Source: Callorhinchus milii
Lineage: Eukaryota
Length of the DNA stretch: 64,000 bases
Direction of reading: 5' to 3'
Assembly: GCF_018977255.1 (NCBI RefSeq)
Contig: NW_024704742.1
Span: forward strand, 61,878,001-61,942,000
In this document: in pieces, positions 9,987 to 53,471 of the stretch
Position numbering within the stretch: position 1 is the first letter of the stretch
Layout: each line of letters begins with the position of its first letter
Made by a program: the position numbers and the translations under genes
The notes under the pieces: generated by a model
Seen by the model: the letters and a program-made list of their open reading frames with translations, nothing else
Database searches by the model: none
Told to the model about the DNA's origin: nothing

Positions 9987-10280
9987 GTAATAATAATCCT
10001 TGTATTTGATACAGCGCTTTTCATGTTTTCTAAATGTCTCAAAACGCTTCACAGAATATACTGTAAAGTGAATTAACTGTTTATTTTGTAGGCAAAGCGT
10101 GACAGCCAATAGCGCTCAGCAGTGTCTCACAAACAGTCATGGATTGAAGCGACCAATTTATTTTATTTGTTTTCTTGAGGGAATGGAGAATGGAAACTTG
10201 TCCACGGTTTCACCCTGCCGGGAATCGAACCCAGGTCTCTTGCTTGTGAGGCAAATGCTTCAACTGAGCTGCAGGACTCC
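9987..10280 (-). mobile_element. tRNA-derived SINE with internal deletion
   Basis: Tail at 9987; head ends ...CTGAGCTGCAGGACTCC; contains the B-box reverse complement GGAATCGAACC. Confidence 0.9.
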
Positions 10281-11312: not shown

Positions 11313-11623
11313 GGAGTCCTGCAGCTCAGTGGTTAGAGCACTCGCTTTGCAAGTGAGAGACCTGAGTTCAATTCCAGGCAGGGCGAAACCTTGGGCAAGT
11401 TTCCTTACTCCACACGCCTAATAATAATCCCTCCAAAACCCAAAACAATAATAAATTGGTCATTTTCAATCTACAACTGTTTGTAGGACATTGCTGTGTG
11501 CAATTGGCTGCCGCGTTCGCCCACAAATATACAGTCAATTCACTTTACAGTGTATTCTGTGAAGCGCTTTGGGAAGTCCTCCCGACGTGAAAAGCGCTAT
11601 ATCAAATTCAAGGATTATTATTA
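11313..11623 (+). mobile_element. Young full-length tRNA(Ala)-like SINE
   Basis: GGAGTCCTGCAGCTCAGTGGTTAGAGCACTCGCTTTGCAAGTGAGAGACCTGAGTTCAATTCC head with intact A/B boxes; near-identical heads at 47845 (+) and 53471 (-). Confidence 0.95.
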
Positions 11624-13077: not shown

Positions 13078-13110
13078 ATAAACAACAACAAATTACATTT
13101 GTATAGCGCC

Positions 13111-13208
13111 TCAATTCACTTTACAGTGTGTTCTGTGAAGCGCTCTGGGACGTCCTCCCGACGTGAAAAGCGCTATATCAAATGCAAGGATTATTATTAT
13201 TATTATTA
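13111..13208 (+). mobile_element. 5'-truncated SINE tail joined to an antisense L2 tail
   Basis: TCAATTCACTTTACAG...(TAT)n directly follows AACAACAACAAATTACATTTGTATAGCGCC. Confidence 0.85.
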
Positions 13209-16191: not shown

Positions 16192-16874
16192 CTATTCACT
16201 GTTTTAGTGATTTAAGCGACTAAAATAAGCACAGACATCTCTGCAAAAGGCACAGTGGAAGTTTAAATATTTAACTTAATAATATCATGTTATAATAATA
16301 TAATAATTATTATAACTTAAAAAGTTTAGCATTTCTGCTGAAACACCTCCAAATACAAATGTGAGGAGATGATAGACTTCCTTTAGTCTAAAATCAAGGA
16401 AATCAAGGAGATTCACTCAGCTCCCCTCCCTCCTCTTCCCTCTTCCTTACACGGAATGCATTCCCATCCCTATAAAGTGATCTGAGATGTTATCCTTCGT
16501 GGAGGGCACAAAATGAATGCGTTGTTGTTGTTAGGGATTGTTGTTGTTGTTGTTGGGGATTGTTAGCATATAGATAGTTCACCATAAACGGCTGTTGACA
16601 CAATTTAATGAATAGTCTCCTTTCGTGCTGTGAACATTCTACAAGTCTGTGATCAGTCAGTTGAAGTCTGAGGCACATGAAATATGTGAAGTGTGGCAGC
16701 AATAAGTGATGTGTTGTGAATGGGATTATGAGCAGTGGATCTGAATGTGCTTCATCACAGCATCTTTCTTCATTCATTCAATTGCTTTTATGTAACGGAT
16801 TCAGGTTAGCGAAGGCAAACTGTGCCTTTTGCAGAAATGTCTGTGCTTATTCTAGTCTCTAAAAGAGTGAACAG
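16192..16874. repeat. Inverted repeat pair
   Basis: 16218-16256 vs 16819-16857 are 37/39 reverse-complementary; the match extends to 16192-16207 vs 16859-16874 after a gap. Confidence 0.9.
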
Positions 16875-41715: not shown

Positions 41716-41968
<253 letters not shown>

Positions 41969-44412: not shown

Positions 44413-45230
44413 CCTAACCTTGATGTTGTGCTCTTAGAATAGGATTCTCCAGTTCTAATAGTGTCACAATTTGGTAAGTCTATCAGTAAGGGATGGACGT
44501 ACCTCTGGTTCTGTTGCCTGGTTGCATGTTCTTTTTTTCTTACGAAACAGATGGTCATTAACACACAAATGCCTTCTCTTCTCTTTAATCACCAGTAAAA
44601 CTTGTTGAAGCCTATGAAATCTTCCAATTAAAAAGTCCTCCTCTGTTGATAGTTTCAATTTCTTTACTTAAGCAGCATTAGCAGTGTATTGATAATAATA
44701 ATCCTGACATTTGATATAATGCGTTTCACATCAGGAGGACTTCTCAAAAAGTTTCACAAGATTTAAAGCAAAGTGTAGTGACTCTGTATTTCGTAGGCAA
44801 TAGTTTAACATTTTCATGTGGTAACAAAGCTGGAAACATCTGAGATTTTCTGCACTGATTACTCTCTGTTTATGTAATTCTGGAGAGTATTAAGCATGGG
44901 TTATCAAAACCGAAGGCTTGGGGATTCCAGATTGGAGTCCTAATGGAGTTCAACTGGATAAAACCTTATAACTTGCCTTTGAGAGCAGCACTGTCTGTCC
45001 CACGTGCAAAATATGCAGGTTGTGCTAATCATGTGCTAATGTTTACATATAGAGCAAATTACAAGGGGCCCTGAATGAAGTGATTAACAAACAATGTAAA
45101 GATTTCCAGGGGGTTTTGTTAATCTTTTTGTTTGTTGTGAATTACATCAATAAACTAACTTGGATGGGTGTATACACTGTTAACCCAACACACAAATGTT
45201 AGCCATGGGTTGCTGGTATCTAACTCAAAT

Positions 45231-46348
45231 AAATCTACTACAACGACAACTTGCACTTATACAGTGCACCTACACCTACACACGAGGCAGCGTCTCAGCA
45301 GCAGCTCCGAAAATAACTTTAATTAGAGCTCCATGGATAAAATGAAGAAAGTAATAATAAGTATAGCTAAGCGGTGCTGAAGGCTTTAAACAAATTGCTT
45401 AATGTTGCACTTATATTGTATGTATGGTTATGAATCATTCTGAGACACTACCCAGCATGAGGGGCGCTATATAAATCCAAGTTGTTGATAATTGAATCAG
45501 CTCAATTCTGGCTGCAACATGCAGAATATTAATTCCGATTGAGCCAGTACAAACTGTGGAGTCCAGCATCACTGCCAACACCACATAACACTTGATGGTG
45601 ATACACATATTGATACACATATTTGGTCTCCTTTTACTAATATCAAAAAGTAACATCGAGAGGGATGAGTGGTGTTACCTTAATTCAAACCCTGTACATA
45701 ATTCCTAATTAGGAATTATGTACAGGGTTTGAATTATGGTAACACCACTCATCCCTCTCGATTATGCTCAACTGAGCTGAGATAATAATAATACAACAAT
45801 AAAACTTTCATTTGATATAACGCCTTCTCACATTGTCAAGATGTCTCAAAGCACTTTACAAGAAAACCGTAAAGTGGATTGAGTGTATATTTTGTGGGCA
45901 AGATACACAGGATGTTATTGAGTATCATAGTGCAAACACACTCAGCATTGAGCACCTCCTCGCATGAGTTTGTAGCTGTGTATGTGAACAGTTTGTGAAA
46001 TGAACTTTGCACTATTCTTACAAACAGAGAAAGCTCAGGCCCATAAAGACCAAAGAGTAAATGAGTAAACCAAGGCATAAAGGCTGTTAGAACACTGCAA
46101 ATGACAAATTAAAAAATTAAACTTGTAATTTAAAATGTGCAGATAATTTTATCCTTAATATTGTCATTACCTGAGCAAAGTCAGGTTCTGTGTGTTTCAA
46201 TAATAGGATTTTACTGGAAGTCAAATTATCTGAGATATAGACTCTTCAGACTCTAATTAAAGTTATTTTCGGAGCTGCTGCTGAGACGCTGCCTCGTGTG
46301 TAGGTGTAGGTGCACTGTATAAGTGCAAGTTGTCGATGTAGTAGATTT
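45231..46348. repeat. 98-bp near-perfect inverted repeat pair
   Basis: 45231-45328 is the reverse complement of 46251-46348 with one mismatch; CAAAT flanks both outer ends. Confidence 0.97.
45655..45762. repeat. 108-bp zero-spacer palindrome
   Basis: Two 54-bp arms centred on CCTAA|TTAGG (45708/45709), one mismatch. Confidence 0.98.
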
Positions 46349-47844
46349 CAAATGAAGAAATATTGTCAAGGAATAATGTAATGGTCAACAGCCCAGAGCC
46401 CGACGGCAATTTCCTAATCACTGAAGAAAGCATCAGCGTGCGTTTAAATAAATATTGTCAGGACCGTCCTCTTGATAACAGCCATCGATAAGAAGCTTCT
46501 TTTATATAATGTGCATACAGTACCCAAGGCCTGGAGAGCAGCAATACAACAGGAAACAATAAATCACAACTGGAGCAACGATTGTGGTAACTAATCGGAT
46601 CACACTGCTCATTCATTCCTCATTGCCTCCATTTAATCCAATTTTCCAGCCAGCAGACTCTGTTAATTGCTGGTATTACGTAGTTTTAGCAAATAGCCAT
46701 CTTCAGTTAATTCTCCTGGTAAAAGAGTAAGACAAGAAGCACAGTATATTATTCAGCACTTGTAGATGAACAGTGACATTCACCAGATACCTGCTCCTAT
46801 GTCTTAATCCAGTTACCTTGATGTGCGTTAAGATTAGACTCGCGAGTGGGATGGTGTTTCGAATCATGTCTCAGCAATTAGATTTTGTGAGTTTACTTTG
46901 TGCTTTAAAGTTACCAAAGTGAAATGAACACAAAAGATAAAAGGACAAGGCAGCAAGAACTTCTATATTGTGCAAATATTGAGATCGACATAAGGAAAAT
47001 AAATATAAACATTGGGCTGCCATGAATGTGCATTTGGGTGAGCTGAGATTTCCCCATAGAAGCTCAATAGTAATAACGAAATAATAATCTTAACATTGGA
47101 TATTGTACCTTTCACGTAGGGAGGACATCAAACTGCTGTAAAAACTGTAGTGACTGTGAAGACGAATGCAGCATCCAATTTGCACGTAGTAATGTGTCAT
47201 AAACAGCCAGAAAGTGAATGAACAATTTTATCTGGGGGATTGTTGGCCACGAAGTCGAGAAAATCTAACTTCTCTTTTCGATTAATGCCCTGGGATTTTT
47301 AACGTTCTCTTGAACAAGCAGTTTGGACCTTAGTTTTGTGTCATATCTGAAGCACGGCACCTCCCACAATACAGAACAATGTACTTGTTGTGTACTGGAG
47401 TGCTGTACTGGAGTGTCAAACAAATTTCCACCCCTGTTAGATATCTGGCCACAGATGTAATAAACCCTTTACCCTCTGGCAACAGTTTGGTCCCAGCAGT
47501 TGTTGAACTCAGCCTATGGTCCCCATTGGAGTGTTGGTTCCATTGACATGACCTTAATTCAACCAAAAAAAGGGGATTTGAGTCACGATTCTGGGGACCA
47601 GCAATTTCATGGCTGAGAGGGTGATTGCCACAATAGGCTGGCTTTGGGCCCATCACATCCCATTTTTCACCCTGATATTCCCTCACAGTTTCAACCTAAA
47701 ATCAGACTCGAGAAATGCATCAACTTGTTAATTCACCAGGAAGCAGAGAATGAAATGAAACTTACAACTTGTGTACAATCTGTACGTACATTATATGTTT
47801 TGTTTTAAAATAGGTTAAAAAGCAAAACAATCTTAGAGGATGAT

Positions 47845-48161
47845 GAGTCCTGTAGCTCAATAGTTAGAGCACTCGCTTTGCAAGTGAGAGACCTGAGTTC
47901 AATTCCAGGCAGGACGAAACCTTGGGTATGTTTCCTTACTCCACACTCCTAATAATAATCCCTCCAAAAAAAGCAAAAACAATAATAAATTGGTGAATTT
48001 CAATCCACGACTGTTTATGGGGCACTGCTGTGCACAATTGGCTGCTGCGTTCGCCCACAAATATATAAGTCAATTCACTTTACAGAATATTCTGTGAAGC
48101 GCTTTGGGACATCTAGAAATGTGAAAAGCGCTATATCAAATGCAACGATTATTATTATTAT
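47845..48161 (+). mobile_element. Young full-length tRNA-derived SINE
   Basis: Nearly the same structure as 11313-11623. Confidence 0.95.
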
Positions 48162-48166
48162 GATGC

Positions 48167-48555
48167 TAGTAGTAATAATAATCCTTGCATTTGATATAGG
48201 AGGATGTCTCAAAGCATTTCCCAACATTCATTGTTAAAATCTGTGTACTGTGTATTTTGTAGGCAAACGGAGCAGTTAATTTGCAGAGCAATGTCCCACA
48301 AACAGCTATGAAGTGAGTGATCAATTTTATCTGGGGATTATTGGTCAGGACACTGGGAGAATACCCCCCTTCCCTTTTCTTTGTGGAATCATTAACATCC
48401 ACCTGATCAGGCAGATGAGACCTCAATTTAACATCTCATCTGAAGGATGGCACCTCCTACAATGTAGTTACACTAGAGTGTCAGCCTGGGGTATATGATT
48501 TCAAAGTCCCAATGTGGAGCTTTAAACCATAACCAACTGAGCCAGGCCAACACCT
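48167..48555 (-). mobile_element. Deu-domain SINE (SacSINE1/AmnSINE1-like), near full length
   Basis: CCACCTGATCAGGCAGATGAGACCTCAATTTAACATCTCATCTGAAGGATGGCACCTCC is the Deu core in reverse. Similar copies lie at 47080-47420, 20870-21170, 29170-29370, 39450-39645 and 7940-8085. Confidence 0.88.
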
Positions 48556-53209: not shown

Positions 53210-53471
53210 CAATAATAATAATAATAATCCTTGCATTTGATATAGCGCTTTTCATGTCTTCTAGACGTCCCAAAGCGCTTCACAGAATATACTGTAAAGT
53301 GAATTGACTGTATATTTGTGGGCGAATGCGGCAGCCAATTGCGTACAGCAATGTCCCACAGTCTTGGATTGTGGAGTAAGGAAACTTGCCCATGGTTTTG
53401 CCCGGCCTGGAATTGAACTCAGGTCTCTCACTTGCAAAGCGAGTGCTCTAACCACTGAGCTACAGGACTCC
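53210..53471 (-). mobile_element. Young tRNA-derived SINE, short variant
   Basis: Head is the near-exact reverse complement of 11313-11412; central part deleted. Confidence 0.95.

What the first reader, a model, noticed from the sequence alone, without database searches (positions are those of the whole stretch)
45226..46353. 1.1-kb unit with 98-bp near-perfect inverted arms, 5-bp flanking direct repeat and host-like interior
Seen: the arms are 97/98 identical, far more alike than neighbouring decayed repeats. CAAAT lies directly outside both arms (45226-45230, 46349-46353). The arms begin with what looks like a decayed L2-type tail, and the interior holds old SINE/L2 scraps, no ORF, and a second palindrome. 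Inference: either a young foldback/Pack-type element with a 5-bp TSD and atypical AAATC termini built from host DNA, or a recent template-switch inverted duplication kept homogeneous by conversion. If transcribed it forms ~100 bp of dsRNA.
Basis: partly seen in the sequence, partly recalled or inferred. Interest (0 to 1): 0.75.

Follow-up and report, generated by a model that had tools for sequence, protein, structure and literature searches.

The report
Young backwards copy, not a transposon
The matching ends of this 1.1-kb 'unit' exist because a 94-base piece of ordinary DNA was recently copied backwards into a spot 0.9 kb away; other samples of the species carry the spot without the copy, so this is a DNA-copying scar and not a jumping gene.

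Summary
The arms (97/98), the flanking CAAAT and the inner palindrome are real. The element reading fails. Contigs of 2 of 4 laid runs join 46246 to 46345 with three other letters in place of the right arm. The left arm, interior and both CAAAT stay in place, so CAAAT is no target-site duplication. The arm body drew one contig per run, with no sign of a family. The right arm carries a left-arm allele that still segregates and looks derived, so it is probably a gain. Its junctions show a 3-bp loss, 4-bp microhomologies and four extra letters matching nearby sequence. Best reading: an inverted templated insertion by DNA template switching or break repair (0.57). The copy ends exactly at the end of a decayed retroposon tail (chance 0.45-1.6%, noticed after the fact), which keeps open a bolder reading: local retro-copying by LINE reverse transcriptase (0.16). 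No data seen show the arm-bearing allele, so an assembly artefact remains (0.12). The scan noted similar backwards copies elsewhere in this genome, but not this sequence.

The parts
45226..45230 (+). left CAAAT: resident flank, not a target-site duplication
   Evidence: inside X1 record 1, X4 record 18 and X5 record 23, which run on into the left arm
45231..45328 (-). left arm = donor; resident DNA whose outer two thirds are a decayed retroposon 3' tail ending at about 45235
   Evidence: continuous with flank and interior in X1, X4, X5; profile match 45297-45229, E 0.0018; one contig per run at 45272
45329..46246 (.). resident interior; present in runs whose contigs lack the right arm
   Evidence: X1 records 2, 3, 4, 7; X2 records 10, 11, 14; X4 records 18, 20
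45417..45504 (+). second decayed retroposon tail of the same high-copy kind
   Evidence: profile match E 1.7e-15 (this copy helped build the profile); very high summed depth
45655..45762 (.). 108-bp spacer-less palindrome (53/54), older and shared; probably an earlier fold-back copy
   Evidence: contigs of X2 and X4 end at 45723 and one of X1 begins at 45694, the fold point of a 31-mer graph; X4 has A at 45680, which removes the one mismatch
45784..45901 (.). scrap of an abundant SINE-type repeat
   Evidence: about 30 similar places in the window at 68-79% identity; very high summed depth
46229..46245 (+). local templates for the extra junction letters: TCTGA at 46229-46233 (inverted) and AGACTCT at 46239-46245 (direct, ending in the CTCT microhomology)
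46247..46250 (+). four extra letters at the left junction of the insertion
   Evidence: absent from the X1 and X2 contigs and from the donor flank
46251..46344 (+). right arm = inserted reverse-complement copy of 45235-45328, one substitution at 46336; replaces three letters of the arm-less allele
   Evidence: joint 46246 to 46345, skips 98, one contig each in X1 (depth 11) and X2 (depth 8.53)
46345..46348 (+). ATTT: resident letters shared by acceptor and donor (4-bp microhomology); they lengthen the apparent arm to 98
   Evidence: present in the arm-less contigs; equals the reverse complement of 45231-45234
46349..46353 (+). right CAAAT: resident flank
   Evidence: inside X1 record 7, X2 record 14 and X4 record 22

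Best explanation
The right arm is a very young, polymorphic inverted templated insertion made during DNA break repair or fork restart. Shown: an allele exists with three letters where the window has 98; 94 of the 98 are the reverse complement of resident DNA 0.92 kb upstream; both junctions have a 4-bp microhomology available; the four extra letters match sequence within 25 bases of the junction. Inferred: a break or stalled fork at 46246 freed a 3' end, which made one or two tiny local re-copies, annealed by CTCT to 45325-45328, copied about 90 bases backwards, let go, and rejoined the far side through ATTT. This is order 3-2-1-4 in the four-point model, or an inverted TINS / MMB-TI. The template may have been the folded-back resected strand or the sister chromatid, and priming from the right end is equally possible. 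The 108-bp palindrome between donor and acceptor is an older event and may have provoked the break (inference). CAAAT on both sides is coincidence. No function is implied.
For: Arm-less bridging contigs in 2 of 4 laid runs, with long sides on both flanks (375 and 706 bases), 0-1 other letters. X4's contig stops at 46345 with 4 unlaid letters, which fits the arm-less allele (weak). Left arm continuous with flank and interior in X1, X4 and X5, and with the left flank in X2. Depth at 45272 equals the one listed contig in each run (9.31, 5.47, 8.82, 2) against 4216 in X1 at the repeat-tail position 45245. Polarity: at 45245 the paralogous tails mostly read A (3998.6 of 4216 depth in X1) and X2 and X4 contigs read A, while both window arms carry G; at all 3 in-arm variable sites the right arm follows the window's left arm. 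Junction words: chance 0.018 (direct), 0.040 (inverted), 0.0035 (both) over all 256 four-letter inserts (post hoc). X1 held 0.77 of sampled words; expected 0.797 without and 0.836 with the arm. The pattern fits published definitions.
Against: No read or contig seen carries the arm-bearing junctions; only 15 of 33 joints and 32 of 14,127 pieces were displayed. Contigs show presence, not absence, so X1 and X2 could also hold the arm allele; some depth on the right-arm bins is not explained by listed contigs (233 base-depth units in X2). The three laid whole-genome-sized runs come from one study. The polarity statistics are weak alone: 0.125 for 3 of 3 sites, and 0.31 for one mismatch or fewer at inter-allele divergence. 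A DNA switch has no reason to end at a retroposon tail end (chance 0.45-1.6%). A 0.92-kb jump is longer than the short-range events in the passages read. The polymerase cannot be named from sequence.
Confidence: 0.57

Rival explanations
1. Local retro-copy: LINE (L2-type) reverse transcriptase bound the decayed tail in a minus-strand nascent RNA, primed at a nick or break 0.9 kb away through ATTT pairing, copied 94 bases, fell off and was joined with four flank-derived extra letters.
For: The insert's 3' end coincides with the end of the tail repeats (chance 0.45-1.6%) and is 5'-truncated. Zebrafish L2 inserts show 3' microhomology in about 80% and 5' extra nucleotides in about 40% (PMC2666801); the extras often come from flanks, and short target truncations occur (PMC4245944). 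Elephant-shark SINEs share a tail with L2-2_CM and some copies are 0% diverged (PMC5499810). Unchecked scan notes describe tail-ended mRNA retrocopies and SINE inserts with local inverted DNA in this genome (leads only).
Against: Landing within 1 kb of the source needs tethering, which nothing here shows. The donor tail is badly decayed (E 0.002; 70-80% over short stretches to other copies), whereas such LINEs are described as stringent (PMC3747384). The microhomology lies just past the tail repeats, not in them. There is no TSD, while the L2 peak is 3-5 bp. No exon was found to orient a transcript. The coincidence was noticed after the fact. The same junction marks arise in DNA repair.
Confidence: 0.16
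2. Assembly or library artefact: the right arm exists only in the assembled sequence.
For: None of the displayed joints or pieces supports the arm-bearing junctions; X1 matches the window base for base over 44810-45473 yet its contig lacks the arm.
Against: A chimera would have to leave and return within 3 bases, add four locally templated letters and one substitution. The neighbouring palindrome, also artefact-prone, is supported in 3 of 4 runs.
Confidence: 0.12
3. Both arms are older and kept alike by conversion; the arm-less allele is a later deletion, for example hairpin resolution.
For: One mismatch in 98 is compatible with inter-allele divergence (P 0.31). Conversion could carry the derived G at 45245 across.
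Against: The deletion would have to remove exactly the arm plus the four junction letters and add three new ones. The arm-less allele sits beside different nearby alleles in X1 and X2 (46385). The junction words are explained by the arm-less flank as template.
Confidence: 0.1
4. Non-autonomous TIR element (foldback, Pack-type or Spy-type) of 1.1 kb.
For: Near-perfect terminal inversion with a 5-bp direct repeat outside; the ends can also be read as AAA and TTT flanks, as for Spy.
Against: Interior, left arm and both CAAAT remain where the right arm is missing; no empty-site joint among 15 shown; one contig per run on the arm body. The ends lack Spy's GGANNNNG. The arm is a retroposon tail.
Confidence: 0.03

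Closest known systems
Four-point template-switch mutation, type 3-2-1-4 (Loytynoja and Goldman 2017, PMC5453318, passages read; preprint 10.1101/2021.11.26.470150, passages read)
   Same: A reverse-complement copy of upstream DNA replaces a few bases and creates a new inverted repeat. This type and its mirror make up 31% of the filtered human-chimp events. Copied lengths near 100 bp and chained switches are reported.
   Different: The donor is 0.92 kb away rather than close by; four extra letters need further micro-switches.
Inverted templated insertions (iTINS) of polymerase-theta end joining (PMC13269935, passages and section 11 read)
   Same: Small deletion plus an insertion matching nearby DNA in reverse orientation, with patchwork letters and microhomology.
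   Different: Natural germ-line allele in a fish, 94 bp from 0.9 kb away; enzyme dependence untested. That paper argues for the sister chromatid as template; here the template is intact, so fold-back is not excluded.
Germ-line MMB-TI events, classical and complex (PMC8421209, passages and first part of section 10 read)
   Same: Templated insertion with microhomology at both junctions and several successive templates; about 100 such calls of 25 bp or more per person, of which 10-11 classical and 26-33 complex.
   Different: Different species; the donor distances of those events were not seen in the passages read.
Class 2 templated sequence insertion polymorphisms (PMC5110952, passages read)
   Same: Polymorphic patch without TSD or poly(A), with microdeletion, microhomology and extra letters; donor left intact.
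   Different: TSIP donors are distant; this donor is local and inverted.
5'-truncated L2-clade retroposon inserts (PMC2666801, PMC4245944, passages read)
   Same: Ends at a tail repeat, 5'-truncated, 3' microhomology, 5' extra letters from the flank, short target truncation.
   Different: The source is a decayed one-off tail 0.9 kb away, not an active family; no TSD.

Membership tests
TIR / foldback / Pack-type DNA element | terminal inverted repeats | tested here: met
   97/98 arms
TIR / foldback / Pack-type DNA element | flanking repeat made by the insertion, single in the empty site | tested here: not met
   both CAAAT words lie in contigs of runs with the arm-less allele
TIR / foldback / Pack-type DNA element | whole unit absent at the empty site | tested here: not met
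   only 46247-46344 is missing in X1 and X2; no joint near 45230 to 46349 among 15 of 33 shown
TIR / foldback / Pack-type DNA element | dispersed copies sharing the termini | tested here: not met
Spy (PHIS) transposons | insertion between AAA and TTT without TSD; GGANNNNG termini | tested here: not met
   AAA/TTT can be read at the ends, but the termini do not fit and the allele seen is not an empty site
Four-point template switch, 3-2-1-4 | inserted fragment is the reverse complement of upstream DNA, with return to the original track | tested here: met
   points 3 = 45231-45235, 2 = 45328, 1 = 46246, 4 = 46345
Four-point template switch, 3-2-1-4 | short range, within one fork; one event explains all changes | tested here: inconclusive
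   0.92-kb jump; four extra letters and one substitution remain
iTINS / MMB-TI | deletion with an insertion of 6 bp or more templated nearby in reverse orientation | tested here: met
   3 letters lost, 94 templated
iTINS / MMB-TI | microhomology at the junctions | tested here: met
   ATTT at the right; CTCT at the left after a local re-copy; 2-12 bp typical
iTINS / MMB-TI | dependence on polymerase theta or on break-induced replication | not testable with these tools
   needs genetics
Class 1 TSIP (L1-type) | TSD of 5 bp or more, poly(A), TTTT/A site | tested here: not met
   none around 46247-46344
Class 2 TSIP | donor from a distant genomic region | tested here: not met
   donor 0.92 kb away; the junction features are met
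L2-clade retroposon insert | 3' end at the tail repeats, 5' truncation, 3' microhomology, 5' extra letters | tested here: met
   the microhomology lies just past the repeats
L2-clade retroposon insert | intact tail recognised by a stringent reverse transcriptase | tested here: inconclusive
   donor tail decayed; fold z -0.29, but three other tail copies gave no signal either; the label 'L2-type' is recalled and was not compared with a library consensus
L2-clade retroposon insert | source is transcribed on the tail's strand | not testable with these tools
   no RNA data were laid

The most novel reading that the evidence does not exclude
A LINE reverse transcriptase of this genome primes on a dead retroposon tail embedded in a nascent RNA still tethered to its locus, and writes a backwards copy of that RNA into DNA within a kilobase. 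This would be a locus-tethered, tail-primed retro-copying route that seeds new inverted repeats. It could account for part of the many 60-200-bp backwards local copies that unchecked scan notes list in this genome, and this locus would be one caught with its pre-insertion allele.
Probability: 0.14. Interest if true: 0.72.

Novelty: new member of a known kind. Interest (0 to 1): 0.27.

Why it matters
As it stands it is an ordinary mutational scar, and a warning: near-perfect terminal inversions with a flanking 5-bp repeat can mimic a transposon. Its value is that both the before and after states are readable to the base, so it can calibrate how the many local backwards copies noted in this genome arise. 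If the tail-end coincidence proved general, dead retroposon tails would act as priming handles for local RNA-to-DNA copying, a source of new long hairpins in vertebrate genomes.

Tried and rejected
No whole genome is held, so copy number could not be searched directly. No RNA holder listed among 24 runs; this says nothing about expression, so dsRNA and editing were not tested. X5's small share came mostly from the common repeat scraps plus one contig over the left arm, not from a multi-copy arm. Parts without cover (X1 about 45474-45693; X4 45935-46159; X2 45335-45409) are not read as absences. Thirteen of the other 14 displayed joints have sides of 18-31 letters and one has 33, including 45486 to 46350 in three runs; I treated them as repeat matches from elsewhere. 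Other end readings (6-bp TCAAAT repeat, AT duplication, Spy-type AAA/TTT) were dropped once the arm-less allele appeared. A family tail grafted onto local DNA was rejected, because the insert's 3' end keeps the donor's own decayed letters. Gene context: 53 frames of 90 codons or more and a composition ranking gave 71 frames for Pfam; 0 of 71 reached a curated cut-off; short exons could be missed. Rfam gave 4 tRNA-like hits, none at the locus. Tail folding gave no signal in 4 of 4 copies. Scan look-ups by sequence, near place, words and relatives were empty. Searches for a locus-tethered retro-copy route listed 3 general RNA-repair papers (listing only) and 0 papers; the library lacks most subscription papers, so this does not show it is unpublished. 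No supplements were read; those of PMC8421209 and PMC5453318 may give donor distances that bear on how unusual 0.92 kb is.

Full report
1. Observation. The arms are 45231-45328 and 46251-46348, 98 nt with one mismatch, 922 nt apart, with CAAAT directly outside each. The inner palindrome 45655-45762 pairs 53 of 54 bases without a spacer. Among 7 local pairs of at least 35 bp and 90% identity within 12 kb, only these two reach 98%. The arms are far beyond chance. The flanking repeat is not: two random positions share a 5-mer in exact register in 0.15% of trials, and 5-10 letters with 2 bases of slack in 3%. About two thirds of the arm is a decayed retroposon 3' tail. It matches positions 53-114 of a profile made from 16 other tail copies in the window, E 0.002. 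Earlier unchecked scan notes call this genome elephant shark; I did not test that. No exon was found: 0 of 71 frames reached a Pfam cut-off.

2. Other samples. Eight of 24 listed runs hold the stretch or part of it. I laid four on 44810-47050 at 88% likeness: X1, X2, X4 (three samples of one study, about 900 million letters of contigs each) and X5 (2.7 million letters, another study). All are contigs; 15 of 33 joints and 32 of 14,127 pieces were displayed. In X1 and X2 one contig each covers 45872-46246, then three other letters, then 46345-47050, with 1 and 0 other letters. So an allele exists without 46247-46344. X4's contig stops at 46345 with four unlaid letters, which fits the same allele but does not prove it. 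X5 does not reach the site. The left arm is continuous with its flank and the interior in X1 (44810-45473, no differences), X4 (45187-45473, 7 differences) and X5 (45151-45478, none), and with the left flank in X2. Both CAAAT words are in these contigs. At 45272, in the arm body, the summed depth equals the one listed contig in each run, against thousands at 45245 in the common tail. X1 held 0.77 of the sampled words, nearer the 0.797 expected without the arm than the 0.836 expected with it. The transposon reading predicts loss of the whole unit, one CAAAT and dispersed copies; none of these is seen.

3. Direction of change. At 45245 the paralogous tails mostly read A, as do the X2 and X4 contigs, while both window arms carry G. 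At 45245, 45266 and 45272 the right arm follows the window's left arm. The right arm was therefore copied, or converted, after a still-segregating change arose. The statistics are weak alone (0.125 and 0.31), but a deletion would have to remove exactly the arm plus its four junction letters. I put gain of the right arm as a real allele at about 0.75.

4. Junctions. Three letters were lost. On the right, ATTT at 46345-46348 is resident and also matches the donor end, a 4-bp microhomology that lengthens the apparent arm from 94 to 98. On the left, four extra letters precede the copy. With their neighbours they form a 7-bp direct copy of 46239-46245 and a 5-bp inverted copy of 46229-46233; over all 256 four-letter inserts the chances are 0.018, 0.040 and 0.0035 for both (post hoc). 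The direct copy ends in CTCT, which is also the first four letters of the arm. CAAAT appears on both sides because the donor end is a short tandem and the acceptor a short palindrome around the same four letters.

5. The palindrome. Contigs end at 45723 (X2, X4) or begin at 45694 (X1), the point where a 31-mer graph folds at a palindrome centred on 45708/45709. It is thus present in 3 of 4 runs, including both with the arm-less allele, and is the older event. X4 has A at 45680, which removes the mismatch. Depth over it is that of single contigs, so nothing points to a MITE family. That it lies between donor and acceptor suggests, but does not show, that it provoked the later break.

6. Mechanism. 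Best: DNA template switching or break repair (0.57). The order of switch points is 3-2-1-4, a type that with its mirror makes 31% of filtered human-chimp events (PMC5453318, passages). Copied lengths near 100 bp and chained switches are known (preprint 10.1101/2021.11.26.470150, passages). A small deletion with an inverted, patchwork insertion is the iTINS scar (PMC13269935, passages and section 11). Germ-line events with microhomology and several templates are common in people (PMC8421209, passages and part of section 10). Class 2 TSIPs share the junction marks but have distant donors (PMC5110952, passages). The enzyme and the priming end cannot be told.

7. The loose thread. The copy ends where the donor's tail repeats end. 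With 27 tail-reaching or 51 total profile hits in the window, a random segment end does so in 0.45-1.6% of trials. L2 inserts are 5'-truncated, with 3' microhomology, flank-derived 5' extra letters and sometimes short target truncations (PMC2666801 and PMC4245944, passages). Elephant-shark SINEs share a tail with L2-2_CM and include undiverged copies (PMC5499810, passages). Against this: such enzymes are described as stringent (PMC3747384, passages) and this tail is decayed; the copy landed 0.92 kb from its source; no transcript is known; and I noticed the coincidence after the fact. I give it 0.16. Two searches for such a tethered route listed 3 general papers and 0 papers, in a library that lacks most subscription journals.

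8. Other rivals. Artefact (0.12): nothing displayed supports the arm-bearing junctions, but the junction anatomy is elaborate for a chimera. Old two-armed state with later deletion (0.10). Transposon, including a Spy-type reading of the ends (PMC4122938, passages): 0.03.

9. Consequence. In a carrier, a transcript through the locus would fold a 98-bp helix around the palindrome stem. Transcription is untested.

10. Verdict. It is a new member of a known kind. Unchecked scan notes list at least eight similar backwards local copies elsewhere in this genome; none of the excerpts shown mentions a pre-insertion allele. Interest 0.27.

Noticed in passing
window 16211-16256 and 16819-16864: A 46-bp inverted pair, 91% alike and about 560 bp apart; possibly an older event of the same kind.
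   Followed up: no
window 45092 and 45187-45473: X2 and X4 share a 15-bp deletion at 45092 and several substitutions; X4's contig differs from the window at 7 of 287 bases, so two quite divergent haplotypes segregate here.
   Followed up: partly
window 11315-11386, 47846-47917, 53398-53469, 10210-10278: Four Rfam tRNA hits; the first three lie in repeats, with 11313-11414 and 53370-53471 96% alike, probably heads of a young tRNA-derived SINE.
   Followed up: no
window 48131-48199: 30-bp inverted pair 9 bases apart, made of two repeat tails back to back.
   Followed up: no
window 13078-13207: A SINE-type scrap abuts a tail of the other kind in opposite sense, a composite junction.
   Followed up: no
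window 41723-41968: About 245 bp of an A/G-rich microsatellite with 12- and 28-bp periods.
   Followed up: no
window 1-64000: No exon detected in 64 kb (0 of 71 frames at a Pfam cut-off); at least 26% of the window is self-repeated.
   Followed up: partly
same genome, other windows: Unchecked notes list many 60-200-bp backwards local copies (MOB1B, PRAG1, TEX261, VAX2, SEL1L3, SLBP, TBC1D9, MAML3); whether this genome is enriched for them is untested.
   Followed up: no
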